Origin: Candidatus Falkowbacteria bacterium
GTDB taxonomy: Bacteria > Patescibacteriota > Patescibacteriia > Patescibacteriales > WJLG01
Length of the DNA stretch: 64,000 nucleotides
Assembly (NCBI GenBank): GCA_963747695.1
Contig: CAVVFV010000010.1
Coordinates: 5,618-69,617 of the forward strand
Reading direction: 5' to 3'
Within the stretch, counting starts at the first letter, position 1; the number at the start of each line of letters is the position of its first letter. The notes beneath the pieces were generated by a model. That model ran no database searches and was not told where the DNA came from. It saw nothing but the letters and a program-made list of their open reading frames with translations. The position numbers were made by a program, and so were the translations under genes. Shown piece by piece: positions 1,296-54,847 of the stretch.

Positions 1296-1731
1296 ATTGT
1301 TATATTGTTATACTGCTATATTGTTAATTTATTATTCGTAAAATTTATTAGGTGATAAATTTCTTTCGGTAATTTCGCCAATTCACCAAATATGTACCTA
1401 TACTCATCTTCGTTCAACAACTTTCTCACTCGAGATTTTTCATTCCAATCCAATGATTCTTTCAGAGATCCGATTGAATAACGATAAAACTTAATTTTGT
1501 CTTTTTTACTGTATCGGCCGAAACCTTCGGCAATATTTGCGTAAATGGAATCGGCAGCGGTAACAAATTGCTCCCCCAAAGAACTTTTATTAAAATAATC
1601 CCATTTTACTATTTTGCTCCAAATATAATTGGATAAATTAAAACTTATTTTGTAAGCGTTCAAGTCGTTGAGCGACAAAAATTTCCCCTCCATAAAATTA
1701 TAACAATATAGCAATATGACAATATAACAAT
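1296..1731. repeat. class-II hairpin cassette: inverted-repeat arms enclosing four-helix-bundle ORF 1316..1693
   Basis: 1296..1326 'attgttatattgttatactgctatattgtta' against the reverse complement of 1701..1731 gives 29/31 matches. Confidence 0.85.
1316..1693 (-). CDS. four-helix-bundle protein, divergent member of the IVS/Avd-like family
   Basis: Motif 'ANIAEGFGRYSKKDKIKFYRYSIGSLKESLDW'. The track ORF starts at a TTG (1714) inside the inverted-repeat arm; the ATG at 1693 (MEGKFLS...) is preferred. Confidence 0.8.
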   Translation of the reverse strand: MEGKFLSLNDLNAYKISFNLSNYIWSKIVKWDYFNKSSLGEQFVTAADSIYANIAEGFGRYSKKDKIKFYRYSIGSLKESLDWNEKSRVRKLLNEDEYRYIFGELAKLPKEIYHLINFTNNKLTI

Positions 1732-4080: not shown

Positions 4081-4189
4081 TTTTTTAATTTTGTAATTTT
4101 TAAATTTTTAAAATAAATCCTAATTTTTAATTTTTAAAAATTAAGCCTTAAAAATTCTTTCAAAAATTTAAAAATTAAAAATTAATTTG
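4081..4189. repeat. AT-rich inverted-repeat element, family 'aaaattaaaaatt', copy 1
   Basis: The core at 4115..4169 is ~95% identical to 13366..13421. The outer arms 4081..4109 / 4162..4186 are complementary. Confidence 0.75.
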
Positions 4190-4197: not shown

Positions 4198-4554
4198 TCA
4201 AAATAATCCCTCGAAATACGGGACAAATATTATCAATCCGACGGCGATGGCCAAGATTGCGGCGATCATCACGGCCGCGGCCATGATATCTTTGGCGGCC
4301 ATCACCGACTCGTGGATCCTCGGCTTAAGCACGTCGGCCAGCCGTTCAATCGCGCTGTTGACCGTTTCCATCAGGATCACCAAGGCGATGCAGATCAAAA
4401 TGGCGCACCATTGCCAAGGCTGGATCTTAAAAACAAAGCCTAAAGCTATTACAATTATAGCAACTAATGAGTGAATCTGTAAATTTTGCTCCTCGCGAAA
4501 AATTTTGAACAAGCCGCGGAAAGCATAGCCGAAACTCTTGAATAAACGAATCAT
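4198..4554 (-). CDS. dgkA: diacylglycerol kinase / undecaprenol kinase family protein
   Basis: 118 aa with three TM segments. Motif 'EEQNLQIH...ETVNSAIERLAD...AKDIMAAAV' is typical of prokaryotic DAGK. Confidence 0.85.
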   Translation of the reverse strand: MIRLFKSFGYAFRGLFKIFREEQNLQIHSLVAIIVIALGFVFKIQPWQWCAILICIALVILMETVNSAIERLADVLKPRIHESVMAAKDIMAAAVMIAAILAIAVGLIIFVPYFEGLF

Positions 4555-4660
4555 TGTTATATTGTCATACTGTTATATTGCTATATTGCTGCGCAACGAA
4601 ATAAATATTTATTGTAATTTAAGACGTCACTTAACAATATAACAATATAGCAATATAACC
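4553..4660. repeat. 'empty' class-II hairpin between ybeY and dgkA
   Basis: Built from the same caatataacaa/ttgttatattg units as the arms at 1296..1731. A 17-bp perfect stem joins 4572..4588 and 4643..4659. The loop begins 'gcgcaacgaaataaata'. Confidence 0.75.
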
Positions 4661-4664
4661 TTTT

Positions 4665-5081: not shown

Positions 5082-5087
5082 TTAAAT

Positions 5088-5220
5088 AAATCTGAAATAC
5101 AAAATCCAAAAATAAATTCAAAATCCGAATAACAAAAATTCTAATCGTTTTGAATTTTGAATTTTTAACATTTGAATTTGTTTAGGATTTCGTGCTTAGA
5201 ATTTCGGATTTGATTAGAAT
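5088..5220. repeat. 'empty' class-I hairpin (no ORF in loop) upstream of ybeY
   Basis: 5174..5211 'gaatttgtttaggatttcgtgcttagaatttcggattt' matches the leader motif at 522..559 and 6940..6978. Nested pairings are 5136..5144/5196..5204 (9 bp) and 5119..5129/5203..5212. Confidence 0.7.
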
Positions 5221-5222
5221 AA

Positions 5223-5284
5223 TGTCGGGAATAGACCCTCCCCGTCTCCGCCAGGGGCAGAGCCACCCCTCCCGGGGAGGGGAC
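5223..5284. repeat. GC-rich REP-like hairpin element (intergenic)
   Basis: 'ccaggggcagagccacccctcccggggaggggac' is related to the reverse complement of the 60357.. terminus ('ccaggggctgtccacccctctcaagagggg'). Confidence 0.65.
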
Positions 5285-6480: not shown

Positions 6481-6978
6481 TTAAATCCGAAGCTAGAAAT
6501 CCGAAATCCGAAACAAATCTAAAATCTCAAATCAGTAAAAACTAAAATTTTAATTTTATTCCTCTTGGGTTGAATTTCTTAAAATAGCTCCGAAAATTTT
6601 CATTAATTCCGTTGCCTCATTGGCTAAAAAATTTCTTTCCCGCGCCGCATTCTCGTAATTTCCGCAATCAATTAAAATTAGCCAGTATCTGCTTTCTTTG
6701 GCCTCCTTGCGACAAATCTTTATTCTTAAGATAAAATCTTTTTTACTTAAAAAATTATTAGCTTCGATATAATTTGCACCCACCGAACCGGACGATCTTG
6801 CCAATTGTTTCGCATCTTCAATATTTGATGTTGAAAACGGAATAACTTTTAGAAAATTTCTAACTTTGGCTGCGAAATTAAGTGTTCTCTCTTCCAAATC
6901 ATAATAATTAATTCTCACTGTTTTGGTCATTGGAATTTTAAATTTGTTTCAGATTTCGTGCTTCGGATTTCGGATTTA
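6481..6978. repeat. class-I hairpin cassette enclosing four-helix-bundle ORF 6556..6930
   Basis: 6497..6512 pairs perfectly (16 bp) with 6962..6977, and 6511..6518 pairs with 6942..6949. The right arm carries the conserved 'aatttgttt.ag.atttcgtgctt.g.attt' motif. Confidence 0.8.
6556..6930 (-). CDS. four-helix-bundle protein (IVS/Avd-like family)
   Basis: 124-aa ATG ORF. 'SSGSVGANYIEANNFLSKKDFILRIKICRKEAKESRYWL'. Bracketed by inverted repeats 6481..6528 / 6932..6978. Confidence 0.85.
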   Translation of the reverse strand: MTKTVRINYYDLEERTLNFAAKVRNFLKVIPFSTSNIEDAKQLARSSGSVGANYIEANNFLSKKDFILRIKICRKEAKESRYWLILIDCGNYENAARERNFLANEATELMKIFGAILRNSTQEE

Positions 6979-13333: not shown

Positions 13334-13342
13334 TGACACGCT

Positions 13343-13440
13343 TTATAATTTTTTAATTTTTAAAGAAATCCTAATTTTTAATTTTTTTAAAAATTAAGCC
13401 TTAAAAATTCTTTAAAAATTACAAAATTACAAAATTAAAT
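13343..13440. repeat. AT-rich inverted-repeat element, copy 2
   Basis: Shares its core with copy 1. Shares both termini with copy 3 ('ttataattttttaatttttaaa' and 'tttaaaaattacaaaatt'). Confidence 0.75.
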
Positions 13441-13446: not shown

Positions 13447-16400
13447 CTAGGGGCAATCTCCGTTGGCGTCCAATTTACTCGTCGCCACGCCGTAACAGCA
13501 GGAAGGCTGCGTTGTCGAAACATTCTTGCAGGTCGACTGATCGCCGGACGGTTTGAAACAATTTTCATGGATATCGCGCACCGCCGAACCGGCCTGGGCG
13601 CGGTAATCGGAAGATTCGCCGAAATCGCTATGCTTGATGATCGCATTGGTCTGGATCGGCGCGTTACCGCCAAAAAGCGTTTCGGTTTGGATCCAATAGC
13701 CGATCGGATTATCCGCCACATTCCAGAGGTTGATATTCTTATGAGTAACTGGCCCTTGGCCGGTATCAATCACAGTCGAGCCGGTAACCAAAGTGGAAGC
13801 CATCATCAATTTATTGAAATTGATTTTGATATCCTGGCTCAACTTCGGCACTTCGCCCGCGGCCGGTGAAACCGACGTCACGATCGGCGCCGAAATATCC
13901 ATCTGATCATTGACATAAAAACTCCAGGAAAAATTATCGCCGTTGGCGCAATAATAAGTAGGGATATTCACCTGGCCACAAGTGGCGGAACTGACCGCGT
14001 CTTGTCGGCAAGCGACATAACCTGGTTCATTTTCGTTCTCGTCAAAGATAAAAAGATTTCCCGAGCTATCTTTGACGGCGCCAGGCAAACCGATGTCTTT
14101 CATTTCCTTATTCATCAAATTCAGGCATCCCGTCGCACCTAGGGCGGTACATCCACCGACAGTATAATATTTGTAATTTCCGGCGTCGGGGCCGGTAATT
14201 TCTCCCAATACTTTGTCCTGTTTGATTCGGGCGGCGATCACGGCCTGGATGATCGTTGAAAAATTATCCTGGCAAGACTGATTATTGGAATAGATCGGCG
14301 GATTATCGCTGTAAGTCGCGGCCGGACCGTCGGCAAAACTATTCCGGTCGCCGTCCAAAGAATTGAAAGCCGCGTCAGTCACGCCATCCGGCCCGCCAGC
14401 TGGCGCGGCCTGAATATTGGCCGCGGGATAGCGGCGGACTTCGGGAGCGGTGGCAGCATAATTGCCGCCCAGATTCTCACTGCAAATATTATTGATGCAT
14501 TGATCGTAGGCTTTGCCATTGACATTCTTAGCGGCGCAATCGGCATTAGTATCGCAATGCGCCAAACTCGCCGCTTTGATAACGACTTCAAGGTGGCTGT
14601 TGGGCGGCAGACAATAGATCGGTTCGCCGCAACCATTGACGCCGCAAGGGACATTACTGGTGAACTCCACGGTCTGATAAAGATTGGCGATGGCGAAAGT
14701 TCCTTGCAAATATTCGTTGCTGCCGGCGCAAATTTTATTGGAACAAGTGAAAGATTTACAGTCAGCGGCCTGCGCGCAACCGCCGCCAGCGGACTTGGCG
14801 TTCGGATCGGCATTGACCACTTGAATTGCTGAAGCGTCAGTGGCGGCCCCGGCCACATTGGACGGCAAGATCGGCTCATTGAAATTTATCTGGATGACCG
14901 TGTTCATCGGCTGGTCAGGCTGGTTGCCGGCCGTGCTGACGTTGGGGTCGGCCGTGCTTGAACCGTCATCGCCGCCTTTCATATTAGTAATCGAGAGCGC
15001 GCCGGAATTATCCGGAGAATTAAAAGATAGGTTGATATTATTACCGGCCGCGCCGGCAGCGGCCGCCGAAACCGTTACTTGAGCGCCGGAAACCGCAACC
15101 GTGATGTCGGTCTGTTTGCCTAAAGCGGCGGCAATATTATTCGCCGTATCCGCGGCTGTCGCGCCCACGGCGATTTCATTATCCTGAGTCGATTTTTTTA
15201 CAAAAGTATAAACGAGCGATCCTGCTTGCAAAGAATCGGCCTGTCGGGCGGCCGTAATCGTAACTGTCCAGGCATCGCCGGCCTTGACATCAGCGTGAGC
15301 AGTCAGAGAAAAAGGATATTTACCGGTAAAGAAAACTGTCCGGCCGCTAAAGATGGCTGAGCCTAAATTTGATCCGTCAATCAATGTCGCCGTAGCAGTT
15401 AATCCGTCCGGCAAAACAACTACTTTGATAACTGCGCTTAAATCGGCATTTTGATTCACCGTGGTATCAGCGTCAGGAGTAGGCGAAGCTGAAACTGTTT
15501 TGGCCGCCGAACTGGTAGCTGCCACAAAATATTGCGGCGGTTTGCGGCAGATGCCGGCATTGACCGTGATTGAGCCGACCGCGCGCGCGGCGAAAACCAG
15601 GTTAGCATTATCCCGGCCGTTGTCCGGCGGCGGAAAGACTCCGCTTGAAACAACCTGCGGCGGAGTAAGATCGATCTTATTGGAAACTTGGAATTGCCAA
15701 TTCAAACTGCCGGCGCAACCGGAACCGCTAAAAGCCGAGCTATGGTCGCTCGTCCGCGTAATCCCGCCGAGCAGATTGACCGTGTACCAGACATTGTCCG
15801 TTTCCGAACCCAAATATTGCGCGGGAATAAAAGTAAATGTTTTATTATTATCGGAAGATATTACTTTGGTATCAATTAAAGGATTGCCGCTGTCGCTGGA
15901 TTTATAAATTTGGACGTTGGTCGTATTGATCGTCGAACCGGCGGCGCAATTTCCACTGGCATCGACGGAAGCGCAAACGGTTTTTGCATCGACCGATTCC
16001 TTGAAAGTGATGAAGATCGCCGTATTCCGCGGCACTGCCATCTGATTGGGCACCGGATAGACATTCTGGACGCTGCATTCGCCGATCGCTCCGGCGCCGT
16101 TGATCCCTCCCCCGGGCGGTCCGGAGGGATTATTGCCGGCTCCTCCGCCGGCTCCGGTCGCGCCCAACAATTGGTTCAAAATAAAAGTCGCGATGGCAAA
16201 AGCGGAAAGGATGATCAGCAAACCGATAATGGCGCTGACCAAAGTCCGCTTGGCCCGGTCGATCTGCTCCTCATTGCCGGCCGCCGTCATCCACAAGAAC
16301 CCGCCGTAAACTATCAAGCCGAGGGCGATGACTCCCAAAAAACCCAAAAAGATCTGGATGATCCGGCCGATGATCAGCCGCGGATCGGTCGCGCCAAGGC

Positions 16401-16518: not shown

Positions 16519-16520
16519 TA

Positions 16521-16713
16521 TCGTATTTCGTATTTCGTATTTCGTATTTTGACTGCCCAGCGATTTGCTCTTGAATTTTGGGCGTAAAAATACAAAAAAC
16601 GCCAGACGAATCATTGACTAATCCCCACTGTTGTTATTAAATTAGATTATACCATAAAATGCCAAGAGAATAAAATATACGAAATACCAAATACGAAATA
16701 CGATATACGAATT
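16521..16713. repeat. 'cgtatttcg/cgaaatacg' inverted simple repeats flanking the divergent promoter region
   Basis: Left arm 16521..16550 ((tcgtattt)n). Right arm 16672..16713 (its imperfect complement), abutting the rel ATG. Confidence 0.7.
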
Positions 16714-18475: not shown

Positions 18476-18496
18476 AGTGAAACACCTCCAATCAAT

Positions 18497-18599
18497 ATTC
18501 GTATCTCGTATTCGGTATTTCGTATTTCGTATATATTTTCAGCAACATTCTGTCCAAAAACATACACGAAATACGAAATACGATCTACGAAATACGATT
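18497..18599. repeat. 'cgtatttcg' family hairpin between hisS and rpsU
   Basis: Arms 18497..18534 and 18562..18599 are ~85% complementary, with a 27-nt loop. Confidence 0.75.
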
Positions 18600-19971
18600 A
18601 AATAGTATTAATTCTCTTCTCGACTTCTGCCTTTACTTTTTTATAATCAACAATCTCTTGATTGCCTGATTCCATATCGCGGAGCATGATCGTCTTGTCA
18701 TTCATTTCCTTCTGGCCTAAGATCAAAGTCAATTTGGCGCCCAAAGCATTGGCTTCTTCCAGCTGATCCTTCAAGCTGTCACGGGTAAAAGCCTGTTTGA
18801 CTTTCAGACCGGACTTGCGCAATTCCTCGAACAAACCCATGGCTTTGCGGCGGGCCGCATCGCCTAATTGAGCGATAAAAATTATATTCTTGTCATCTTT
18901 TTCCAAAGGGATGCCGGCGGTTTTTATTTTCGCGACAGTGCGCTCGATGCCAACGGCGAAGCCGCAAGTCGGAGTCGGCCGGCCGCCGAAAAATTCCACC
19001 AAAGTGTCATACCGTCCGCCGCCGCCCAAAGACAATTGGCCATTGGGATTCTTGTCCCCTTCTTCCTTGGCGGTGATCTCAAAAACCGTGCCGGTATAAT
19101 AATCCAAGCCGCGGACCAGACTCAAATTCAAATTATAAGGAATGTTCATTTCATCGAGATATTCCAAAACGCGGGTGAATTTCTTCTTGCAATCCTCGCA
19201 GAGGAAATCGACGATCGGCGGCGCGCCTTCTTTCAAAGCGATGCAATTAGGTTCTTTACAATCTAAAAGGCGTAAGGGATTTTTTTCCAACCGGCGCTTG
19301 CAATCATTGCAGAGTCGCGAACGGTTACCCCTTTCTTTATAATAAGCGGTCAGCTTCTTGATATATTCGCCGCGGCATTGCTTGCAGCCGATATTATTAA
19401 CCTGTAATTCGATATCGATCTGCAATTCGCTGAAAAGATTATAAGCGATGAGCATCAAGAGGAAATCGGCCACCGGGCTGGCTTCGCCGAAAATTTCCAT
19501 ATCAAACTGATGCGACTGGCGGTATCGTCCGGCTTGCGGTTTTTCGTGGCGGAAGATCGGACCGTAAGAATACATCTTCACCGGATGCGGCATATTCAGC
19601 ATGCCGTTCTCGATATAAGCGCGGACCAAGCTCGGCGTGATTTCCGGACGTAAGGCGATCTTTTCACCGTTCTTATCGACAAAAGCGTACATTTCTTTGG
19701 AAACGATATCGCTCGATTCGCCGGTGGATTTGCGGTAAAGCTCCAATTGCTCGAGGATCGGAGTTTGGATTTTCTTGAAACCGTAAATTTCCGCCAAGTC
19801 GGAAGCTTTCTTGATCACCAGATCCCAATATTTATTTTCGTCAAAAATAATATCCTTCATCCCTCTTAAGCGGACGAATTTTTCCGAAAGGCCTTTCTGC
19901 TTCAATTCCTCTTTGTGGAAAGGATCCCGGTGGTGATGATTGTTATTTTGATTATTTTTTCGACGAGGCAT
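18598..19971 (-). CDS. hisS: histidine--tRNA ligase
   Basis: 457 aa. 'RGMKD', 'LRPEITPSLVRAY', 'YGPIFRHEKPQAGRYRQSHQFDMEIFG'. Confidence 0.92.
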   Translation of the reverse strand: MPRRKNNQNNNHHHRDPFHKEELKQKGLSEKFVRLRGMKDIIFDENKYWDLVIKKASDLAEIYGFKKIQTPILEQLELYRKSTGESSDIVSKEMYAFVDKNGEKIALRPEITPSLVRAYIENGMLNMPHPVKMYSYGPIFRHEKPQAGRYRQSHQFDMEIFGEASPVADFLLMLIAYNLFSELQIDIELQVNNIGCKQCRGEYIKKLTAYYKERGNRSRLCNDCKRRLEKNPLRLLDCKEPNCIALKEGAPPIVDFLCEDCKKKFTRVLEYLDEMNIPYNLNLSLVRGLDYYTGTVFEITAKEEGDKNPNGQLSLGGGGRYDTLVEFFGGRPTPTCGFAVGIERTVAKIKTAGIPLEKDDKNIIFIAQLGDAARRKAMGLFEELRKSGLKVKQAFTRDSLKDQLEEANALGAKLTLILGQKEMNDKTIMLRDMESGNQEIVDYKKVKAEVEKRINTI

Positions 19972-19980: not shown

Positions 19981-20118
19981 AATTTAAATTTTATAATTTT
20001 TTAATTTTTAAATAGTTTTTAAACTCTAATTTTTTAATTTTTTAAAGGCCAATTTAAATGATAATTTTAAAAATTAAAAATTTGGATTTATTTAAAAATT
20101 ACAAAATTTAAAAATTTC
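19981..20118. repeat. AT-rich inverted-repeat element, copy 3
   Basis: 19991..20012 is identical to 13344..13365, and 20091..20108 is identical to 13411..13428. Confidence 0.75.
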
Positions 20119-20689: not shown

Positions 20690-20809
20690 TGTTTTTAAAA
20701 AATAATATCCCCTCCTTGTTTTATGGGGGAGTTTTGCGAGTAATTTAACTTATACCCAATATAACATTAAAAAATACGGCAGTCAACCCTAAAAAATAAT
20801 CCGAACCTG

Positions 20810-20888
20810 CGAAATATCCGAATACTACGAACCCTGCAAATCGAAAAAAAATTCGTTGTATTCGCGTATAATTCGTAGTATTCGTATT
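20810..20888. repeat. 'cgaatac' family hairpin upstream of lepB
   Basis: 13-bp perfect stem 20819..20831 / 20872..20884, with an inner palindrome 'tcgaaaaaaaattcg'. Confidence 0.7.
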
Positions 20889-20920
20889 ATCTGACCGAGC
20901 AAATTAGAAAGTAAGCAGTG

Positions 20921-21004
20921 AATACAAAACCGGCCCGCTAAAAGCAGGCCGGTTTTTGTTTTCCCGAATGAAGTCGACTTGTCTAAATTAGCCAACTCAT
21001 CCTG
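20921..21004 (-). ncRNA. candidate ~83-nt small RNA (own promoter and intrinsic terminator)
   Basis: Near-consensus promoter at 21011..21039. The stem aaaaccggcc/ggccggtttt (20926..20956) is followed by UUUUGUAUU on the minus strand. No family recognised. Confidence 0.4.
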
Positions 21005-21010
21005 TGGATA

Positions 21011-21039
21011 ATTATAGCAAACCCGCGGGTCACGGTCAA
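21011..21039 (-). promoter_or_regulatory. sigma-70-type promoter TTGACC-N17-TATAAT
   Basis: Minus-strand read: -35 TTGACC (21039..21034), 17-nt spacer, -10 TATAAT (21016..21011). Confidence 0.55.
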
Positions 21040-21090
21040 GCCATTTATCAACAGCGGCAAACAACCAGAGACAAAGTAATTAAAAAAAAT

Positions 21091-21192
21091 GTTATACTGC
21101 CAAATTGTTATATTGTTACGCAACGAAATAAATAACAATGGTGTTTATTAAAATCGTTGCGTAACAATATAACAATTTAACAATATGACAAT
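21091..21192. repeat. 'empty' class-II hairpin, 25-bp perfect stem
   Basis: 21102..21126 'aaattgttatattgttacgcaacga' is the exact reverse complement of 21154..21178. The 27-nt loop begins 'aataaata', as in 4553..4660. Confidence 0.85.
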
Positions 21193-21248
21193 GCATTAAT
21201 AAAACACAAAAGAGGCCCTTGCGAGCCTCTTAGTGCTATATGAAAAAT

Positions 21249-22409
21249 TTATTTCTTGACTTGGTATTTCTCCCCGACCTTTTCAAAGACTTCTTTATCC
21301 ATTAAGGCGAGGTTGATGGTGGTGTTCTTGACCATCCGGTTCTCCAAGACTTTCTTGATGATCTCGTCTTTGGAGAGCGGACCGCTTTCGACTAAGATAT
21401 CGCGGATCACATCGGCGACGACGCCTTCTTTATAACCCCATTCCTTCAAACCGTAGATGCCGCGGCCGATCAAAACGTATTTCGGATCCAGGATCAATTC
21501 ATTGTGGACAGTGGCCGGATTGGCGGTCTTATGATCGAAGCTTACTTCGTTGATGCGCTTGGCAATATCCACGAAATGCATCGGCTTGCCCTGATTCTTC
21601 AACACCAGATAAATCTTATGATTGATGGTCTTGGGCGCCACTTCTTCCGAATTATAGACTCCCCAGAAACCGAATTTATTCTGCTCAATGTCCTTGACGG
21701 CCACCAGCAAAGAATAGAGGATCTTATTGTTATTGATCAATTCCGAATCTTCATCGAACAAAGCTCCATCCCAATAGCTGGAAACGTCGACCTCGGACGG
21801 CACATCCAATTTATCTTTGTGTTCGCCGTAAACATCAGTCTTGGTGACGAGGTCGATCGCCTCGTTGGTTTTGATCACTTGTTTCAGATTGGAAATTCCT
21901 CTGACCATTTCTCTGGCCAAAGCTTCCAGATGATCCAAAGATTCGCACTTCAATTTATAAGAGGTCTTGAAGATATCGGAATCTTTGATCTCTTCGAATT
22001 CATCGTGCAGCAAGCGGGAAAGCATAAAATCATACTGATTCTTTTCCACTTCATAATCATCGCTTCTGTATTCGACCGGAGAGAAAGTATTCAAAAGGTG
22101 GAATAAATATTCCTTTTCCGCCAAGCCGCCGTGCTCAACCAAAAGCTTATTGGTGATTTCCCGCAGATCAACCAGCTCCTCCTTCAATTCCTTGACCTCG
22201 CGCAATTTCTTGATGGTGGCATTCTCAATCTGGCGAATGCGCTCGCGAGTCAGATTGTGCAGGCCGCCAACCGCTTCGAGAGTTTCCTTCTCACTGTCCT
22301 TCAAACCGAACCGACGGGTGATGATATCCCGTTCTTTCTTGGAAAGCCTCGCCAAAAGACTTTTCACAATTTCGTTGGTGTTTAATTTTGTGCTGCTTTC
22401 GTTAGACAT
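21249..22409 (-). CDS. sigma-70 region-4-like HTH protein with C-terminal winged-helix (HARE-HTH-like) domain
   Basis: 386 aa. 'ERDIITRRFGL...TLEAVGGLHNLTRERIRQIENATIKKLR' matches sigma region 4. No region 2 was seen, so it is probably not a canonical sigma factor. Confidence 0.6.
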   Translation of the reverse strand: MSNESSTKLNTNEIVKSLLARLSKKERDIITRRFGLKDSEKETLEAVGGLHNLTRERIRQIENATIKKLREVKELKEELVDLREITNKLLVEHGGLAEKEYLFHLLNTFSPVEYRSDDYEVEKNQYDFMLSRLLHDEFEEIKDSDIFKTSYKLKCESLDHLEALAREMVRGISNLKQVIKTNEAIDLVTKTDVYGEHKDKLDVPSEVDVSSYWDGALFDEDSELINNNKILYSLLVAVKDIEQNKFGFWGVYNSEEVAPKTINHKIYLVLKNQGKPMHFVDIAKRINEVSFDHKTANPATVHNELILDPKYVLIGRGIYGLKEWGYKEGVVADVIRDILVESGPLSKDEIIKKVLENRMVKNTTINLALMDKEVFEKVGEKYQVKK

Positions 22410-23203: not shown

Positions 23204-23293
23204 AAAATATCCAATAAACAATATCAAATATCCAAAAAATATTAAAATATTTAAATATTTTTTAAAATATTGGCTATTTGATATTGGATATTT
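23204..23293. repeat. 'aaatatccaata' hairpin filling the yebC-ruvC gap
   Basis: 12-bp perfect stem 23205..23216 / 23282..23293 with an imperfect extension. The arms touch the ruvC start and the yebC stop. Confidence 0.7.
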
Positions 23294-24740: not shown

Positions 24741-27700
24741 CTATCTTTTCGCTCCGCTGTAAGCGATGGCGCGGACCGCGTCCCAGGCGCGGGCGGTTAC
24801 CGGATTATGCTTGAAGAAATAATAATAAGCCTTGATGGCGATCTTTTCATTGGTCTGATTCCTTTGGGCCGGACGCAAGCCATAAGCCATGATGGTGACG
24901 GCGTTGTTATCATAAGTATTATTCATATTCGCAGGGCGGCCATAAATAGTCTTGAAGCTTTCTTGCGCCGTCTTAATCGCTCCCGGACTTTGTTTGGTCG
25001 GCCAGCGGCCATTGCCGATCTTCAACACATCTTGCCAATCAGCCAAAGTTACGGGCAGATAACCGTAAGCGGATTGGAAAGAAGAAACCGAACCGCCGCG
25101 TTCTCCCGCGCCAAGAATGTGGGTGGTCGGCGTGCCGACATGGATGAAATAGGCAATCGTGATCTTTTCTTGAGCCGTTAACGGCGCCGTAGCCAAAGCG
25201 ATCACTCTTTGATAGACCGACAATTCCACCGCCGGAAGAGCGACATATTGAGCGTTGGCTAACAGAGTGTCGGCTTCGTCGGCGGTAACTTGATTGACGA
25301 CCGCGCTGCTCGCGCCGATCAAACTGGTAACAACGCCGCCGGAACTGCTGCCGCTAGCCGGAACGACCACGGAAGGCGGCAAAATATCCACCGGCGTAAC
25401 GACGGTCGCTTGTCCCGAACCGGCCGTCGCCGCGGTTGTCCGGGCCGTAGAATAATTTAAATTATTATCGTACGAGTAGATTGAGTAATAATAAGTTTGA
25501 CCGTTGGACAAACCAGAGTCCACGAATTTTTGCGCATTGCCAAGATAAATTACCGAGGCTAAAGGATCGGTGTAACCGGAAAGCGGCGACCCGAGTTTAT
25601 GATAGATCTTCACGCCGGCAAAATCACTGTCGCTCGGATTCGTCCAAGACAGCGTAATCTGGCCGTCGGAACTGGTGGCAAAAAGATTACTTACCAGGCC
25701 GGGCGGAGTCGTGTCTGGCGGCTTGACCGGGGCCGAAGCTCCGCCGCCGCCTCCGCCGCCTCCTCCCCCGCTGCCGCTTCCATTTCCACTATTATGAACA
25801 GTAGCGCAAGAAACTAAAATATTATTGACGTCAGCGTCAGCCACAATCCCTTGGCCGGAAGATATTGTACAAGTCTGACTGCCGGGATTGGTCAAAACTG
25901 TTACGTTATATCCAGCCGCATCATCCAGCTCGGTGGCAAAATTAAATACGCCGTTGGCCGAGATGATGAGATTATCGCCGCCGTTATTCTGCAAAATAAC
26001 CGTACCGCTCAATCCGGAAACCCTGCCGCCGATCACATAAGTATCGGCGCCGGCATCGCTGGCGTAAGCCGCCGAAACAACATGGTTGGCTTGGATATTA
26101 TTAATAATGTAGGTCGAACTCGTACTGACTAAAACCGAATCGACCAAAATGCCGGTGACGTGATAGCCGGTGGTGGCAGTAACCGTGTAACCTTGACTCT
26201 CGCCATAATTTTTGGTGGTGATACCCGAGGGAGCGATCGTGCCGTATGAGCTGCTGGAAGCGGTGATCGTATAAGTGTTGATAGCAAAACCGGCGCTGAC
26301 GGAAATATTTCCGGCAACATTAAGGTCCTTTCTCGGATTGGCCGTTGAACTATCGCTCCAGAGAGTAAAATGATAACCGGCAATCGGTTCAGCCGTGACG
26401 GCGGCGCCATCGGCGCCCGGCGCGACCGATTGGTTTGAGTTGCCCAAGATCGATCCGTTGGCTCCGGCGGAATAAGCCAGCGTGTAAGGAGACAAGGCCG
26501 TTTGAAAAGTGAAATCAGTCGTCGTGGCCGAATCGCCGGAAGAATCATCGGCAATGATCTGAAAATGATAAATATTATTCGGCGTCAGTCCACTAAGCGT
26601 CACGGAATTGGAAGTTGATGACGGAGTGGAAGAAGAAACCGAACCATAATTTTCGTCTGGGCCGTAATTGACCGCCGAGTCCGCCGCGACATTGGTCAAC
26701 CAGGAAATCGTCGCCGTGTAAGCGGTTGTCGAAGAAGAAATCTGATAGATGACCAGCGGTGCCGAAATATCCTCACAGGAAATATTAATATCAGAGACAG
26801 CTGCTCCGGCAATAGTTCCGTAATAATGATCCACCGAACAGAGCTGACCGGACGGCTGATTCAAAACCGTCACATTATAAGCGGCGCCATCGTTCAAAGC
26901 CGTGGCAAAAGCATACGGCCCATTGCTGGTAAGATCCAAATCATCGCTGCCGTTATTCTGCAAAGTGACCGTGCCGGAAAGTCCGCTGACCGATCCGCCG
27001 ACGGTATAAGTCGGCAGCGTTACCGTGACCGGCGCGCTGGCCGAAGCGGAAATATTTCCTGCCGCGTCGCGAGCCCAGGCATAAAGAGTCTTACTTCCCG
27101 CGTCGGCAAAAGTATAAGTCGTGGTAGCGGTTGATCTCCACTCCGGATCATCGGCGGACGGGATAGCCGAAAATTCGTTGACCAGATAACCGGTAACGCC
27201 GGTATCGTCGCTCGCGGTAAGAACAATCGGAACGGAAAGCGAGGCGGAAGTCGAAGATACTACGAAAGAATCGATGGTCGGCGGCGTGTTATCCGAAGGC
27301 GGTCCGCCTCCCCCGCTCTCCGCGGTGGTGAAAGTATGGTCGCTCGAAGTCGCGCGGTTGCCGGCAGCATCGGTCGATCCGATCTGAAAATGATAAATCG
27401 TATCGGCTTCAAGGCCGCGCAAAGTTATCGAGTGTTCCGTTTCAAGAGAATCAGAAGATGAAGCCAGACCATAGCCGGAATCAAGGCCATAACTGACCGA
27501 TGAAGTCGCCGGCTCATCGGTCGTCCAGGTGATGGTGGCGGAATCGGCCGTAGTGGAAGTGCCGGTCAAAGTAATCACCGGCGGAGTAATATCCGAAGAC
27601 GAAGAAATATTATTATCGGCCGGCCGGAAAACGGCGATCGCGGCGCTATTATTTACATCACCGGTAACCGTCCAGGTCGGATCATAGCTATCGGTATCCG

Positions 27701-30700
27701 GCGCGATATAATAAGCCATCGCCCCGTCCATATCGCTCCAATTATGTTCGCTGTCGGAAATATTGAATCCGCTATCGATGCCGAAATCGGTTCCGTTGGA
27801 ATCGCCGCTTGAGAAAGCACTGATCAATAATTCTCCAGCTGAAGCGGGTGCGACGCTGCCGGTCGAAATCGTATTGCCGGAATTCGTGGTGCTGCCGTTG
27901 CCCGTGTCATAAGGATCACTGTCAGTGGCTATGCCGCTCCAAGCCGTTACGGTCAGAACCGGATAGTTTGATGACGCGCCGTTGACGGAAAAAGTCTGCT
28001 CCGGACTGGTGGTCGGGTGATAGGCATACCAGATCTGCGCATAACCGTTATAGCCGGAATTATCCCCTCCTGCTGAAGTGCCATAAGCCTTTAAGTGATG
28101 CCAAATATTATTCATGCTATCGGTAATGCTGACGGTGGAAGTGGAATTATAAACATGCAGACCGACGACGATCAAACTGGCGCCGGTGGTATTGATAGCC
28201 GGCGTGGTCACTCCTTCACCTTCGTCGCCGCTGTCGATTACACCAGTCGAGGCTAGCAAACGGATGCTGGTCGAAAAAGTTGTGAAGGTATGATCGGCGG
28301 AAACAGTCTCACTGCCGTCGGCATCGGTAGTTTTTATGCGATAGTGATAAGTGGCGGGAACATCCAGGCCGCGCAGCGTGATCGAATGTTCAGTGACGAA
28401 AGCATCGGAAGATGAGGCATTGCCGTAAGCGTCAGTCAAGCCATATTCGACGGTGGAAGTGGCGGCTTCGTCGGTTATCCACGTTATAGTGGCGGTCGCG
28501 CCGGCCGTGGAAGTGCCAATGGCTAAAATTATCGGAGCGACAAATTGATCCGCGCCGATATCCCAAACCGAGCCGCGAGCTTGGCCGTCGATGTCGTCGG
28601 AGAAAGGAAGGTAAGGATCGCTAGATAAATTAATTCCCGCCCCGATAGCAGTCGTGTCGTCGGCGGACAAATGATAATCATTATTAGCGATACTGATAAA
28701 CGAAACTGTGGCGGAATCTTTAGAATGAGCGCCCGGAGCATCGTTCAAATTGGAAATATTATAATCACCGGAAATATTTCCTGAATATCCAGAAGATATG
28801 GCATTTTGTACGATATTATTTTCCGCCTCAATCGTGCCGGTAGCCTCCGCAAATATGCTTTGATCGCAATTTACCAAAGTATTGCTATAAGAATAAATAT
28901 TGCCGTCGCTAAGACCAAAGCCGTAACTATTATGGTTAGCGCTTGAATAATCATAGAACAAGCTGTTCCAAACTTTAATATTCGCTGGTGAATCCCAGCT
29001 TGAATTGCTTAAAGCAGTCCCGCCGTTTATTAAACCGGTAAAATTAGCCCGGCTAATATTGTCAGACACTCTAATATCAGAATTAATGTCATTAGGATAA
29101 ATTTCATAGGTTGTCGCCCAAGCATTTCCACTTCTAATAATTTCAGTCTGTAAGCCGTCAAGCCGAACAAATTTAGAATTAACAGTGATCAATTCGTTTT
29201 GAGTGTTATTGTCGATCAAGGCATATTTAGTTTCGTCCCATTTCCCAGAATGCCGCTGAGTCTGATTTACTTGCGAAGTAGTGTTATTTGGCGCGTATAT
29301 ATTTATGTAATTACTCGAGCCGGTATTCCAGCCATCAATGGTGACGGCGGACGTGTCCGGACCAGAATCGTAATAGCAAGGGATGTTTAAAATATAATTT
29401 CCGGCGACCAGGTCGGAAGTATCAAGATAATTAGCGCCCGAAGAGCCGGACACGGCGTTTTCTAGTGAAGCAAACGCGTGGGCGATGGAATCGACTGACG
29501 CGCCGGAAATATCAGCGGGCGTCGCGCCGAGCGCGGTAACCAAAGTCCATTGCGTGGTGGAAATCTTGCCAGCTATATAAGCGACATTATTCGTATCATA
29601 GGTCACTTCATCGCCTACTCCCATATTGGTCGCCGTTTGCGCCACGGAAAAAGTTCCGACGCCATCACTGATGGTTAAAGTCGGCGAGCCCGTCTTATGA
29701 TCATCAGTATTCTGGCCGACGGAATAATAAACATTGGTAGTTGTCGCCACATATTCATCCGCGCCGATATCCCAAGCGCCGGTAGCCGGCCGCGAATTGC
29801 CGGCCAAATCACTATTGAAAGCATAATCAGGATCAGAGGTCAGATTTGCACCCATGCCGATCACCGGAGAGCCGGCCTTAAGCCGATAATCATCATCGGC
29901 CGGATTGGCAAAAATATCACCAGCTGCACAAGCCGAACCGCCACATGCCGTATTTAAGTCCAATAAGTTGGTGCTAAAATCTTCACCGTAATAATTAAAA
30001 TTTCCAGCATTATTTGTCGAGCCCGAGACCGAAGCATCAAGCTCGCCGGGATTACCGAAGAAAATATTATTTTTAGCGGTAAAATTTATCACGCTGCCTT
30101 CCGCCGCGTAATTGTAATAAGTGTAGGTGTTATTGGCAAAAGTATCATTGTAAATAAATGCGTCGGTGGTAGAAACATCTTCTCCGCCGCGAATCCTAAG
30201 GCCAGCGCCAAAATCGTAGATCAAATTATTTATCACATAAGCCCGGTGGCCTTCAGCCAATGATCCGCTGACAATCCCAAAACTTTGAGCTATGGCGTGC
30301 CCCTTGAGGATATTATCAAGAATATAGTGATTTCCCGCGGCACCGCTAACTCCAAGGGCATTTTGCCCGCTTGACTGTAGATCGCTCGTCCCTTCGATTT
30401 GCAAACCATCAATAATCAAATAGTCCACGCCCGATCCTGAGATAGTCGAATCGTTTGTGTTAGGAGAAACATGATATTTAGCCGGATCCCAAATTGCGCC
30501 GTGGCGCTGGCTCACGCCAACCTCGGAAGATAAATAAGGAGCATAGATGCGCAAATAATTTTCCGGACCGGTCACCCAGCCGGCAGCAAAATTTACAGCT
30601 GCCGTGTCAGTCGCGTCGCCATAGCAAGCGATATTCCAATATTCATTATTAGCCACCAGGTCGCGGCCGGAATCGGCAAAATTATCGCTCGGTACGACCA

Positions 30701-33700
30701 GTGAAGGATTAAGAATGCCGTTAACTGCGTCGTTCAACGAAACATAAGAGCGATAGATTTCCCATTTGCTTTGGCCGGAGGTGCCGACCGGTGTCTGGCC
30801 AAGATGATCCTTAACTACATATTCAGTCGTGGAAATCCGGCCCTGGATGAAAACGATCTCGTCGCCCGAATCAATTATGCCGTTGCTGTTGGCATCAAAT
30901 TCAATCGCGTCGCCAACGCCGATCTTGTCCGGCAGAGCCGAAGAGAAAGTGGCGACGCTACCGGAAATAGTCAGAGTGTTGGCGAGACTGCCGGAAACTA
31001 GTGCGCCGGTACTACCCGGGCCGACCGAACGGTAAATTGGCGTGGCGGTTGCCTGGACATATTGATCCGCGCCAACATCCCAGGATGTGCCGCGAGTCTG
31101 GCCGTCGATATCAGTAGAGAAGGCGATTTCGGAATCCGCCGACAAATTTGTACCTTGGCCGATGGCCGCGGTATCGCTCGCCACCAAATGGAAATCACCA
31201 TTGTTGGCATTGACGAAAGTTATCCGAGCATCATTCTGCGGATCGGAACCGAACGCGCCGGACTGCGTCGGACCGGAAAGGTTGTCAGTTGAGGAGGCAG
31301 TAAAATCTTCTCCGACATAATTAGTCACATTGTCATAAGAAATATTATTCTTGGCGGCAAAATTTCCGCCATAGGCGATCACGCCGCCGTTGGATTGATA
31401 AACGGTATTGTTGTAGGCATAACAATTTCCCGAATCGCAATAGATGCCGCCCTGGTAGCTGTTGTAAGGCGCATAGCCGAATCCGTAAATAATATTATTC
31501 CAAGCGTAAACGGTGCTGTTATCGTCCTGATCATGGGCGCCGATGCCTTCAATGTATCCATCTTGAGTCAATACTCCCCAGATAATATTGTCAGAAAACC
31601 AAGCCGCGCCGGCCACGCTATTGCCCCGGTCCAAACCGCAGCCGTATTGACCAAGGAAGGTTGATTTTATCTGCAGGCCCTCGATTTTGACATAACCGAC
31701 TGATTGGACGCTGATAGCGGAAACATCGGTACCCGATATTTGCAGATTGTATTTGCTATCATCCCATTTGCCCTGGTGCCTTTGCGACAAATTAACCTCG
31801 GTCGCCACATTGTCCGGCGTATAGATTTTCAGGTAATTACTCGGGCCGGTATTCCAGCCATCAATGGTGACGGCGGACGTGTCCGGACCGGAATCGTAAT
31901 AGCAAGGGATGTTTAAAATATAATTTCCCGCGACCAAGTCGGAAGTATCAAGATGATCCGTGTCGGCTGCGCCGCCCACCATATCTTCCAGTGAAGCGAA
32001 AGCATGAGTGATGGAATTAACCGTCGCACCGGAAATATCCGCTGGCGTAGCGCCAGTAGCGGTAGTGAGAGTCCATTGCGAAGTGGAAATCTTGCCGGAA
32101 ATATAAGCGACTTGATCAGCATCATAAGTCACCTTGTCGCCTACTCCCATATCGGCGGCTGTTTGCGCCACGGAGAAAGTTCCGACTCCGCTAGCGATGG
32201 TTAAAGTGGGATTACCGGTTTTGTGATCATCCGTGTTCTGCCCGACCGAATAATAAACCGGCTTGGGCGCGGAAAAAGTTATGGTCACAGTCGAGCTAGC
32301 TGGCGCGGACAGATTACCGTCGGCGTCGCGTACCCAGGCATAAAGTTTGTGGAACCCGAAGGAAGAGAACGCGTAAGAAACCGGAACCGTGCTTGACCAT
32401 TTTTTATCATTGAGCTGCGGAGTGGAAGATGATTCGCTGACAAAATAGCCGGTAACACCAGTATCGTCGCTGGCGGAAAAAGTCAACGGCACCGTTAAAA
32501 GATAGGTGGCTGCCGGAATTGAGAAAGCGGTGATGGTCGGCGCGACAATATCCAGCGAAGTGAAAGTCTGATCGCCGTAAGTCGTACCGCTCATCTCGAA
32601 ATGATAAACAGTTTTCGGAGCCAATCCTTTGATGGTGATCGAGTGTGCAGTAACGACGGCCGCTGATGAAGATGATAAGCCATAACTTTCGGCCGTGCCA
32701 TAATTTATTAACGAGCTGGTCGCTTCATCGGTAGACCAGATGATCGTAGCGCTATTATTTCCCCGAATCACTTGGAAGGAATAATCAACCGCACCGATAT
32801 CCCACTCTCCTGCCGGACGAATCGCGCCGGTAATATCATCGGTAAAAGCTAATTCCGGATCGGCGGAAAGATCAGCGCCCTGGCCTTTAACCGGCGAACC
32901 GGCCGCGAGACGAAAATCATTATTAAGCGGATCGGTAAAAATTGCCGTTGCGGGATAAGAAGATAGATCCAAAGCATCCACAGCCGGCGCGTTGCCATTG
33001 GCATAAGCGTTATTGGTAGAGGAAGCATTGATAGAGTTGCCATAATAATCATAACGGTTGCCGTAAGAAATATTATTTTTTTCCAGCGTATCCGAGCCAT
33101 TCAATATGCCAACCCCGCAATCGGATACGGTATTGTTATAGATCCGGGAAACGACAGTCGCATCCCCGGAATTTCCAGCTATTCCGGTGCCGTCATCTTT
33201 ATTATCGAACCCGTAAATAATATTATTCCAAACATCGAAATATCTGATCGGATCACCAGCGTTGTTATAATAATTCATACTGATGCCGGATCCGCCATAG
33301 CTTTTTCCGCTCACGACGCCGGCAATAATATTGTCAGATAGCCAAATGTGGGCGCCGCCGTCAACGCCGTCGGTCGTAAAACCGGAAGCTTCATAAGCGT
33401 TGGAATCAATCGTTTTAAGTTGTAAGCCGTCAATTTTAAGAAAATCAGCAGCATCATCAATGACAGCATCGTCGGTTACCGTTAGGGCGAACTTTTCATC
33501 ATCCCATTTACCGTTATTCCGCTGTGATCGATTGGACTGGTTAGCGATATCGTCCGGGGTGTAAATATTGATGTAATTACTCAGCCCAGTCGTCCATCCG
33601 GTTATATACACTGCAGCTGTATCCGGACCGGAATCGTAATAGCAAGGTATATTCAAAATATAATTTCCCGCGACCAAATCGTTGGTATCAAGATGATTAG

Positions 33701-47868: not shown

Positions 47869-47916
47869 GATCCCTGCCTGCCGGCAGGCAGGCTTTGCGA
47901 CACGCTCAGGATGACA
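47869..47916. repeat. GC-rich REP-like palindrome ('cctgcctgccggcaggcagg') with 'caggatgaca' end
   Basis: Perfect 20-nt palindrome at 47873..47892. The end motif is shared with 58056..58088 and 61295..61344. Confidence 0.65.
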
Positions 47917-54221: not shown

Positions 54222-54242
54222 AAATATTTTAATTAATAATTA

Positions 54243-54330
54243 AAAATGTAAATCTCAAAATGCAAAATTATAGAATTCGCCTGAGGCAAAAAAATACTAA
54301 TTAATTTTTCATTTTGACATTTTCATTTTA
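54243..54330. repeat. 'aaaatgNaaat' hairpin immediately downstream of tRNA-Pro
   Basis: Arms 54243..54269 / 54303..54330 are imperfectly complementary. Same family as 54796..54847. Confidence 0.7.
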
Positions 54331-54340
54331 CACTACTTTG

Positions 54341-54785: not shown

Positions 54786-54795
54786 GAAAATACTG

Positions 54796-54847
54796 TAAAA
54801 TGCAAATCTCAAAATGAAAAATTTTTCATTTTGACTTTTTCATTTTA
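54796..54847. repeat. 52-nt palindrome immediately downstream of tRNA-fMet
   Basis: 54796..54821 against the reverse complement of 54822..54847, with few mismatches. The 13-bp core 'tcaaaatgaaaaa/tttttcattttga' is perfect. Confidence 0.8.

What the first reader, a model, noticed from the sequence alone, without database searches (positions are those of the whole stretch)
21091..21192. 25-bp perfect-stem hairpin, a second 'empty' class-II element 17 kb from its relatives
21102..21126 is the exact reverse complement of 21154..21178, and the 27-nt loop is itself partly self-complementary. A perfect 25-bp duplex in an AT-rich spacer is far beyond what an intrinsic terminator needs. It is an ideal RNase III substrate. 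It lies between the sigma-region-4-like gene and the candidate sRNA promoter.
Basis: seen in the sequence. Interest (0 to 1): 0.55.

Follow-up and report, generated by a model that had tools for sequence, protein, structure and literature searches.

The report
ORF-less copy of an IVS-like palindromic cassette
The 25-bp perfect hairpin is real and is a gene-less copy of a palindromic element that, in its full form, carries a small 'four-helix-bundle' gene of the kind found in 23S rRNA intervening sequences. This links an orphan gene family to a class of hairpins scattered between genes in Patescibacteria and other phyla.

Summary
**Observation.** Confirmed. 21102-21126 is the exact reverse complement of 21154-21178. 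Imperfect arms extend to 21090-21135 / 21145-21190. Each arm is four 8-bp units (TTGTTAnn) plus a TTACGCAACGA box.

**Identity.** It is one of three such convergent array pairs in the window. One pair (1297-1336 / 1691-1730) encloses a PF05635/TIGR02436 four-helix-bundle gene. Homologues of that gene in five other genomic contexts, one with an NCBI Bacteroidetes label, carry the same arm class. A second gene clade carries a different arm class from Patescibacteria to Syntrophaceae.

**Conservation.**
- Two relatives (83-85% aa) have the hairpin at the same site, with compensatory changes.
- Closer relatives have other palindromes or cargo genes there.

**Reading.** It is an ORF-less member of an IVS-like, horizontally spreading cassette family. 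RNase III cleavage is plausible by analogy with 23S rRNA IVS stems, but untested. A canonical terminator lies upstream and a U8 tract follows the hairpin. It is not needed for the neighbouring conserved sRNA promoter.

**Verdict.** New variant of a known kind; moderate interest.

The parts
21090..21190 (.). Whole palindromic element (class II, ORF-less). Arms are 21090-21135 and 21145-21190. On the - strand it reads four TGTnAnAT units plus box, a loop, then box plus four units.
21102..21126 (.). Left half of the perfect 25-bp core. Contains the box TTACGCAACGA (21116-21126).
21154..21178 (.). Right half of the perfect 25-bp core. Contains the box TCGTTGCGTAA (21154-21164).
21127..21153 (.). 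27-nt centre, partly self-complementary. TTTTAATAAA next to the box is conserved in the L004 and L010 orthologues.
21082..21089 (-). T8 run directly after the hairpin on the - (gene-sense) strand. It is T6 in L004 and T4AT2 in L010.
21210..21231 (-). Canonical intrinsic terminator of the Sigma70_r4/HARE-HTH gene (9-bp stem, GCAA loop, T-rich tail). It lies upstream of the hairpin in the direction of transcription.
   Evidence: position conserved in relatives
21249..22409 (-). Sigma70_r4 + HARE-HTH protein gene (386 aa). Used as the synteny anchor.
21011..21039 (-). Promoter-like site TTGACC-17-TGCTATAAT (11/12 plus TG) of a conserved candidate sRNA, about 50 nt downstream of the hairpin.
20920..21004 (-). 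Candidate ~85-nt sRNA, ending at the terminator hairpin 20956-20926. Conserved in relatives whether or not they have the class-II hairpin.
4554..4661 (.). Second ORF-less class-II element, between ybeY and the diacylglycerol kinase gene. The box is on one arm only.
1297..1730 (-). Full class-II cassette. It has a 5' arm (1691-1730), a PF05635/TIGR02436 gene (1316-1693, -) and a 3' arm (1297-1336). The last four codons and the stop codon lie in the array.

Best explanation
The hairpin is an ORF-less member of a family of palindromic cassettes.

**Shown**
- A full member has a 5' arm of four to five TTGTTAnn units, sometimes followed by the box TTGCGCAACGA. Then comes a ~125-aa four-helix-bundle gene (PF05635/TIGR02436, the 'S23p' protein of 23S rRNA intervening sequences). 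Last is the inverted 3' arm.
- This copy keeps both arms and the box and has only 27 nt in place of the gene.
- The family is dispersed between genes in several Patescibacteria, and with the gene in other phyla.
- The arms of the cassettes can pair across the gene.
- Pairing is kept by compensatory changes.
- This copy is shared with two relatives at the same site.
- It sits at a hot spot where other relatives carry other palindromes or small cargo genes.

**Inferred**
- The element is basically a selfish or horizontally spreading insertion that tolerates, or prefers, the gap between a terminator and the next promoter.
- When read-through transcripts cross it on the - strand, it folds into a ~46-bp stem.
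- That stem would be cut by RNase III, as the stems of 23S rRNA IVSs are.
- With its U8 tail it may also stop residual read-through before the sRNA promoter.
- It is not a specific regulator of its neighbours.
For: **Family and gene link**
- The window has exactly three convergent TTGnTAnn array pairs, against 0.1 arrays in shuffles.
- One pair encloses a PF05635 gene, E 2e-20, which is also TIGR02436.
- Homologues of that gene at 70-96% identity occur in L039, L040/41, L042 (Falkowbacteria) and L043-48 (protein labelled Bacteroidetes). All are flanked by the same arm class.
- L040 also has ATTGTTGCGCAACGA after its 5' arm.
- A pattern built on the box plus two units found four more ORF-less members in Nomurabacteria, Falkowbacteria and two other Patescibacteria. 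Their left arms were not part of the pattern.

**A second clade behaves the same way**
- ivp1/ivp3 are 22-24% identical to ivp2.
- They carry a different arm class, AAATCCG-type.
- That class is kept in L049 (Patescibacteria), L051 (protein labelled Deltaproteobacteria, inside a methylmalonyl-CoA mutase operon) and L083 (Syntrophaceae, inside a xanthine-dehydrogenase-type operon).

**Pairing**
- All 10 cassettes have arms that pair across the ORF, with duplex dG -31 to -47 and z -2.7 to -9.5.
- ivp1 and ivp3 arms covary across ~380 nt: CCG/CGG versus CCT/AGG, and GAAAC/GTTTC versus TAAAC/GTTTA.
- In seven ORF-less members, 85% of cells pair, against 31-51% when partners are slid.
- The covariation score is 0.159 against 0.114 in shuffles (1/500). 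One column pair is AU3/CG2/UA2 with no mismatch.

**Conservation at this site**
- L004 and L010 have the element right after the same gene's terminator, with compensatory changes.
- Hairpin identity between the window and L004 is 83.5%. The adjacent spacer is 56.5%, the terminator region 54.5% and the gene 79.5%.

**Analogy**
- The Coxiella IVS has a 28-bp stem of terminal inverted repeats with an S23p ORF in the loop, and is excised by RNase III.
- Source for both points: PMC4990558.
Against: - There are no transcript data. A good terminator (21231-21210) lies 20 nt upstream, so the hairpin may rarely be transcribed.
- G.U versus A.C pairs on the gene-sense strand are 18:11 across seven members, which is not significant. 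ORF-less members occur in both orientations relative to flanking genes.
- The window-wide excess of G.U pairs on the - strand (59 versus 22) is confounded by GC skew.
- Periodic arms can pair in several registers, which inflates pairing scores. The covariation rests on seven sequences.
- No nucleotide comparison with a true rRNA IVS was possible. The IVS link rests on protein family and architecture.
- Closer relatives (89-94% aa) lack this element at the site. Its history therefore needs loss, replacement or recombination.
- No mobility enzyme and no clear target-site duplication were found.
Confidence: 0.6

Rival explanations
1. Domesticated back-up terminator or insulator. The long stem plus U8 on the - strand stops polymerases that escape the canonical terminator, and so protects the sRNA promoter from read-through.
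For: - A T8 run follows the stem on the gene-sense strand. It is T6 in L004 and T4AT2 in L010.
- The position is terminator, then hairpin, then promoter.
- The hairpin is conserved better than the flanking spacer.
Against: - The terminator scan did not call it. The stem base is A/U-rich with wobbles, and the arms are 46 nt.
- Other family members lack a T run and lie in both orientations, some abutting start codons.
- Relatives without it keep the same sRNA promoter.
Confidence: 0.2
2. DNA-level protein-binding array. Here 8-bp iterons in inverted orientation act as an operator or centromere-like site, like the omega heptads or the ParG tetramer boxes. The array would control the sRNA promoter or serve some other DNA transaction.
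For: - The core TTGTTA is invariant at 8-bp spacing, with 4-5 units per arm in all members.
- The box GTTGCGCAAC is itself a 10-bp palindrome in L004, L035 and L040.
Against: - The non-conserved unit position covaries between arms, which a repeat-reading protein does not require.
- The same element occurs in unrelated contexts.
- At the orthologous site other relatives carry unrelated arrays, while the sRNA promoter is unchanged.
- In the cassettes the two arms are ~400 bp apart.
Confidence: 0.07
3. Locally generated, functionless palindrome. It arose by slippage of short units plus intrastrand template switching, which also 'corrects' quasi-palindromes to perfection. Its resemblance to the cassette arms would be convergent.
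For: - Nearly every intergenic region here has an inverted array of some 7-8-bp unit, and the classes turn over quickly between relatives.
- Pairs are almost all Watson-Crick, 33 of 36.
Against: - The box plus arm sequence is shared with elements in other genera and with cassette 5' ends.
- The TCGTATT-class arm of L040 matches window 20805-20892 at about 36 of 38 bases (by eye) at a different locus.
- Arm covariation across a 380-nt ORF is hard to get by local template switching.
Confidence: 0.08

Closest known systems
23S rRNA intervening sequences (IVS), with an S23p ORF (Coxiella, Leptospira) or without one (Salmonella)
   Same: - Terminal inverted repeats form a long stem. It is 28 bp in Coxiella and 25 bp perfect (46 nt imperfect) here.
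- Full-length relatives carry a PF05635 four-helix-bundle ORF in the loop, and ORF-less forms exist.
- Distribution is sporadic and looks horizontal.
- The ORF has no Shine-Dalgarno sequence.
- (PMC4990558.)
   Different: - These elements sit between protein-coding genes, not in helix 25 or 45 of 23S rRNA.
- The arms are built of 7-8-bp tandem units.
- Each gene clade carries its own arm class.
- RNase III excision is not shown here.
- Nucleotide similarity to rRNA IVS arms could not be tested.
REPIN / RAYT systems (REP doublets and their REP-associated tyrosine transposases)
   Same: - Hairpins of ~100 bp made of two inverted halves lie in intergenic regions.
- There are several classes per genome.
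- A small gene is flanked by the same repeats in inverted orientation, alongside gene-less copies.
   Different: - The flanked gene is a four-helix-bundle protein, not a Y1 transposase. Pfam gives PF05635 only.
- There is no GTAG-type REP head.
- Copy number per genome is unknown.
MITEs such as Neisseria Correia elements (from my own knowledge, some are RNase III substrates when co-transcribed)
   Same: - They are short, terminal-inverted-repeat elements without a transposase.
- They insert between genes and can form long RNA stems.
   Different: - No target-site duplication was established.
- No parent IS is known.
- The arms are periodic arrays.
Intrinsic (rho-independent) terminators
   Same: There is a hairpin followed by a U tract on the sense strand.
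   Different: - The stem is four to five times longer than usual and A/U-rich at its base.
- It lies downstream of a canonical terminator.
- Family members occur without U tracts.

Membership tests
23S rRNA intervening sequence (IVS) | Terminal inverted repeats forming a long stem (about 25 bp or more) | tested here: met
   25-bp perfect core and 46-nt arms. Cassette arms pair across the ORF.
23S rRNA intervening sequence (IVS) | S23p / PF05635 ORF in the loop (ORF-bearing type) | tested here: not met
   This copy has a 27-nt centre and no ORF. Its relatives at 1297-1730 and in L039-L043 do carry the ORF. It corresponds to the ORF-less type.
23S rRNA intervening sequence (IVS) | Inserted in helix 25 or 45 of the 23S rRNA gene | tested here: not met
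   There is no rRNA gene in the window (Rfam). The element lies between a protein gene and an sRNA promoter.
23S rRNA intervening sequence (IVS) | Excised from the precursor by RNase III | not testable with these tools
   Needs RNA end mapping or an in vitro cleavage assay. No rnc gene was found among the window ORFs scanned.
REPIN/RAYT | Cognate Y1 (IS200/IS605-like) transposase gene flanked by the repeats | tested here: not met
   The flanked genes hit only PF05635/TIGR02436. There is no Y1_Tnp in the window.
REPIN/RAYT | Gene-less inverted doublets dispersed in intergenic regions, many per genome | tested here: inconclusive
   There are two ORF-less and one ORF-bearing class-II copies in 64 kb. 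The whole genome was not available.
MITE | Terminal inverted repeats plus target-site duplication | tested here: inconclusive
   TIR-like arms are present. The flanks TTTTATTAAT / TTTTTTTAAT are similar but A/T-rich, and no clean empty site exists in relatives.
Intrinsic terminator | Short G+C-rich stem-loop immediately followed by a U tract | tested here: not met
   The consensus scan calls 21231-21210 but not the hairpin. U8 is present, but the stem is long and A/U-rich.
Any Rfam family | Score at or above the family's gathering threshold | tested here: not met
   Only tRNAs pass the threshold. In E-value mode the hairpin gives only sub-threshold plant miRNA-precursor hits, that is, a generic long hairpin.

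The most novel reading that the evidence does not exclude
The four-helix-bundle (S23p/Avd-like) proteins are the sequence-specific partners of their own flanking repeat arrays. Solved relatives crystallise with five chains (2RLD, 2GSC), and S23p of Xanthomonas is reported as a pentamer. Each arm has four to five 7-8-nt units. Each protein clade travels with its own arm class across phyla. In this reading the protein binds the arrays, as RNA or DNA, and promotes maintenance, processing or spread of the cassettes and of ORF-less copies such as this hairpin. That would be a REPIN/RAYT-like partnership without a known transposase. It would also explain the origin of 23S rRNA IVSs.
Probability: 0.15. 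Interest if true: 0.8.

Novelty: new variant of a known kind. Interest (0 to 1): 0.5.

Why it matters
PF05635/TIGR02436 is a very large orphan family. Each of my two searches returned thousands of hits. Members at 65-72% identity carry source labels from Patescibacteria, Bacteroidetes and Deltaproteobacteria.

Its only described context is the 23S rRNA intervening sequence, whose origin and purpose are still open. Here the same gene type sits inside ordinary operons and intergenic gaps. It is always bracketed by clade-specific inverted arrays that pair across it, and gene-less copies such as this hairpin persist.

This gives a concrete, testable model for three things:
- what IVSs are (general palindromic cassettes that also land in rRNA);
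- why Patescibacteria intergenic regions are full of fast-turning-over hairpins;
- how such insertions avoid harming operons (a stem that loops out or excises the insert).

For annotation, it warns against reading every such hairpin as a local regulator.

Tried and rejected
- **Rfam.** At gathering thresholds and in E-value mode, nothing beyond generic hairpin hits.
- **Literature.** Searches for intergenic repeats or terminators in Patescibacteria/CPR found nothing relevant. Searches on PF05635 gave only the Coxiella IVS paper and DGR reviews.
- **Viral contigs.** The box pattern had 0 hits. The array-only pattern hit 30 contigs, all solo tandem arrays with no inverted partner and no IVP gene, so they are unrelated.
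- **Plasmids.** tblastn with ivp2 gave one distant cyanobacterial hit, which was not informative.
- **Replication origin.** GC skew is monotonic across the window, so rejected.
- **Transposon ends, integron attC or RAYT.** No transposase, integrase, RT or Y1 gene is in the window. In integron cassettes the ORF lies outside attC, whereas here it lies inside the palindrome.
- **Strand test for RNA-level selection.** G.U versus A.C gave 18:11, not significant. The window-wide bias is confounded by GC skew.
- **Promoter reading of the arms.** The unit TGTTATAT(T) resembles an extended -10, and the scan gives TTGTCA-16-TATTGT at 21191..21164. This is too weak and untestable here.
- **Further IVP genes.** A search of all fetched loci found none beyond those targeted.

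Full report
**1. Observation**

The hairpin is real. 21102-21126 is the exact reverse complement of 21154-21178, with no comparable match in 100 shuffles.
- The repeat extends imperfectly to 46-nt arms (21090-21135 / 21145-21190, 85%), leaving 9 unpaired bases.
- As RNA it folds to -44 kcal/mol on the + strand and -49.4 on the - strand, z about -9 to -10.
- On the - strand, the sense strand of almost all genes here, each arm is four 8-bp units plus a box: TGTCATAT TGTTAAAT TGTTATAT TGTTACGC-AACGA.
- A second assembly (Logan) is identical across the hairpin. It differs from the window only by a 9-bp indel elsewhere.

**2. Context**

The window is from a Patescibacteria (CPR) genome.
- It has T4SS-pilin-like giant surface proteins and a Sigma70_r4/HARE-HTH protein.
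- The nearest named homologues are 'Patescibacteria group' and Falkowbacteria.

Read on the - strand, the order is:
- the Sigma70_r4/HARE-HTH gene (22409-21249);
- its canonical terminator (21231-21210);
- the hairpin (21190-21090) followed by T8;
- about 42 nt of spacer;
- a near-consensus extended promoter, TTGACC-17-TGCTATAAT (21039-21011);
- a ~85-nt transcript ending at a second terminator (20956-20926);
- another inverted array (20892-20805);
- the lepB promoter and gene.

**3. Relatives inside the window**

A scan for three or more consecutive TTGnTAnn units finds exactly three convergent pairs, against 0.1 arrays in shuffles.
- This hairpin is one pair.
- 4554-4593 / 4630-4661 has 36 nt between the arms and the box on one side only.
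- 1297-1336 / 1691-1730 encloses a 125-aa gene (1316-1693, -).

That gene is PF05635 '23S rRNA intervening sequence protein' (E 2e-20) and TIGR02436 'four helix bundle protein'.

Two more PF05635 genes (132-512 and 6556-6930) are 68% identical to each other but only 22-24% to the first. They are bracketed by a different array class, the AAATCCG/AAATCCT type.

**4. The arms travel with the gene**

*ivp2 clade.* I looked up homologues of the class-II gene at 96, 79, 70 and 72% identity.
- They are L039, L040/41, L042 from a Falkowbacteria MAG, and L043-48, whose protein NCBI labels Bacteroidetes.
- All have (ATTGTTAn)n immediately upstream.
- All have ...TTAACAATTTAA|CAATnnAnCAAT... downstream. 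The last codons (K-L-T-I-stop) lie in the array.
- L040 also has ATTGTTGCGCAACGA after the 5' arm, the same box as in the hairpin.

*ivp3 clade.* I looked up homologues at 65-71% identity.
- They are L049 (Patescibacteria), L051 (protein labelled Deltaproteobacteria) and L083 (Syntrophaceae).
- L051 lies between the B12-binding subunit and a glyoxalase-family gene (Pfam Glyoxalase) of a methylmalonyl-CoA mutase operon.
- L083 lies between the Fe-S and Mo subunits of a xanthine-dehydrogenase-type operon.
- All carry AAATYCGAAGCACGAAATCCGAAA.ACGAAACAA upstream and TTGTTTCGGATTTCG..TTCGGATTT downstream.
- In L051 and L083 the next gene's ribosome-binding site follows directly.

*Pairing across the ORF.*
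- In all ten cassettes the arms can pair across the ORF, with dG -31 to -47 and z -2.7 to -9.5.
- Between ivp1 and ivp3 the arms covary across ~380 nt: CCG/CGG versus CCT/AGG, and GAAAC/GTTTC versus TAAAC/GTTTA.

**5. More ORF-less members**

An exact scan of GTDB species genomes with TTCGTTGCGYARCAATNTARCAAT returned four hits.
- The hits are in Nomurabacteria, Falkowbacteria and two other Patescibacteria, all in unrelated contexts.
- Three of them have a left arm of ATTGnTAn units that the pattern did not require.
- On an alignment of seven ORF-less members, 85% of cells pair, against 31-51% for slid partners.
- The covariation score exceeds 499 of 500 shuffles.
- The free eighth position of the unit covaries between arms (AU3/CG2/UA2, no mismatch).

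**6. The same site in relatives**

I fetched 27 loci encoding relatives of the Sigma70_r4/HARE-HTH protein, plus the three closest from other sources.

*Relatives with the hairpin.*
- L004 (85% aa) and L010 (83%) have the class-II hairpin in the same place, right after the terminator.
- They show compensatory changes: T.A / A.T / C.G at one pair and A.T to G.C at another.
- Between the window and L004 the hairpin is 83.5% identical. The sRNA region is similar at 83.9%.
- The spacer is 56.5%, the terminator region 54.5% and the gene 79.5%.

*Relatives without it.* Relatives closer by protein identity (L030 94%, L033/L034 92%, L028 90%, L013 89%), and others (L005/9, L006/7, L011), carry something else there.
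- Some have inverted arrays of other units: GTTATGTG, TTAGTTAA, AAGAATT.
- Some have a CCTGCCGGCAGG palindrome.
- Some have small genes with their own promoters.
- The sRNA promoter and RNA are conserved in all that reach that far.

*Other intergenic sites behave the same way.*
- At ybeY-dagK the window has class II, L040 has a TCGTATT-class element and L039 has an AATTTTT-class element.
- The L040 arm matches window 20805-20892 at about 36 of 38 bases, counted by eye.
- yebC-ruvC, lepB-hisS and hisS-rpsU each have a palindrome in window, L030 and L034, often of a different class.

The site is therefore a hot spot, and the elements are interchangeable.

**7. What it most likely is and does**

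*Identity (well supported).* It is an ORF-less member of the ivp2-type cassette family.

*Architecture.*
- It matches that of 23S rRNA intervening sequences. The Coxiella IVS has a 28-bp stem of terminal inverted repeats and an S23p ORF in the loop, and is excised by RNase III.
[quoted passage not shown] That Salmonella IVSs lack an ORF is from my own knowledge.

*Mechanism (inferred).*
- Arm covariation across a 380-nt ORF argues for selection on long-range pairing of a single strand, most simply the transcript.
- The ORF-bearing cassettes are co-oriented with their operons. Looping out or RNase III excision of the insert would explain how they are tolerated.
- For this copy the same stem would form only in transcripts that escape the upstream terminator. 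There it would be an RNase III substrate and, with U8, perhaps a second stop.

*Limits on any specific local role.*
- The neighbours are conserved without the hairpin.
- ORF-less members lie in both orientations relative to flanking genes.
- The G.U/A.C strand test is not significant at 18:11.
- No enzyme for mobility is evident in the window.

**8. Comparison with what is known, and novelty**
- It is not a member of the rRNA IVS class, because the insertion-site criterion is not met.
- It is not a REPIN/RAYT element, because there is no Y1 transposase.
- It is not an established MITE, because no target-site duplication or parent IS was found.
- It is not a canonical terminator, and it matches no Rfam family.
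- It works most like an ORF-less IVS, and populationally like a REPIN.

I found no description of PF05635 cassettes with clade-specific periodic arms in operons, or of their ORF-less derivatives, in the searchable literature. That library is incomplete. I rate it a new variant of a known kind.

**9. Caveats**
- Sample sizes are small: seven ORF-less members and ten cassettes in about eight independent contexts.
- Periodic arms allow alternative registers.
- Taxon labels are those of the sources.
- There are no expression data.
- The whole source genome was not available for a census.

Noticed in passing
window 20920-21039 (-): Candidate ~85-nt sRNA with a near-consensus extended promoter (TTGACC-17-TGCTATAAT). 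The promoter's last bases and the start of the transcript spell TTATCCACA (21011-21003), the DnaA-box consensus, one of only two in the window (the other is 56107-56115). It ends at a covariation-supported terminator (20956-20926). Promoter and RNA are conserved in eight relatives. There is no Rfam match.
   Followed up: partly
window 132-512, 1316-1693, 6556-6930 (all -): Three PF05635/TIGR02436 four-helix-bundle genes lie in the first 7 kb. Each sits in the loop of a long-range stem formed by flanking inverted arrays, and none has a Shine-Dalgarno sequence. The arms of the two AAATCC-class cassettes covary across the ORF.
   Followed up: yes
window 4090-4181, 13342-13433, 19986-20117; 16519-16710, 18490-18613, 20805-20892; 23205-23293; 54235-54335, 54791-54852; 54943-55008; 5082-5235: At least six further classes of intergenic palindromes are built of 7-8-bp tandem units (AATTTTT, TCGTATT, ATATC, CATTTTGA, TCTCTTA, AAATCC-empty). 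Relatives have palindromes of other classes at the same orthologous sites, so turnover is fast while the position is fixed.
   Followed up: partly
window 47873-47892; L013 1597-1616; L030 6257-6276; L049 1458-1472 and 2046-2060: A G+C-rich palindrome, CCTGCCGGCAGGCAGG, recurs in the window and in relatives. In L049 it lies on both sides of a PF05635 cassette. It is probably another dispersed element.
   Followed up: no
window 54551-54596 / 54663-54708: A 46-nt inverted repeat (83%) with normal G+C content lies between tRNA-Pro and tRNA-Phe. It folds to -81 kcal/mol on the + strand and is unlike the A/T-rich arrays.
   Followed up: no
window 15543-15551: A 9-bp in-frame indel in the 1055-aa T4SS-pilin/Big_5 protein gene is the only difference from the Logan contig over 13 kb.
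   Followed up: no
window 20757-20766 and the class-II units: The unit TGTTATAT(T) has the form of an extended -10 element (TGnTATAnT). The lepB promoter's -10 region is TGTTATATTG, and the ivp2 5' arm ends in TGTTATAAT four bases before the ATG. The arms may have promoter activity, but this was not tested.
   Followed up: no
window 24741-44432 (-): A single 6563-aa ORF. Its C-terminal 2999 aa has fibronectin-III, purple-acid-phosphatase-N and InlB-B-repeat-like domains. It is a giant surface protein, which I take to be typical of CPR genomes (own knowledge).
   Followed up: no
L003, L009, L013, L030 (gap after the Sigma70_r4/HARE-HTH gene): In several relatives the gap that holds the hairpin instead holds a small gene with its own TTGACA-type promoter. 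Examples are a 148-aa ORF in L030 and a secreted-looking protein in L013. The site also accepts gene cargo.
   Followed up: partly
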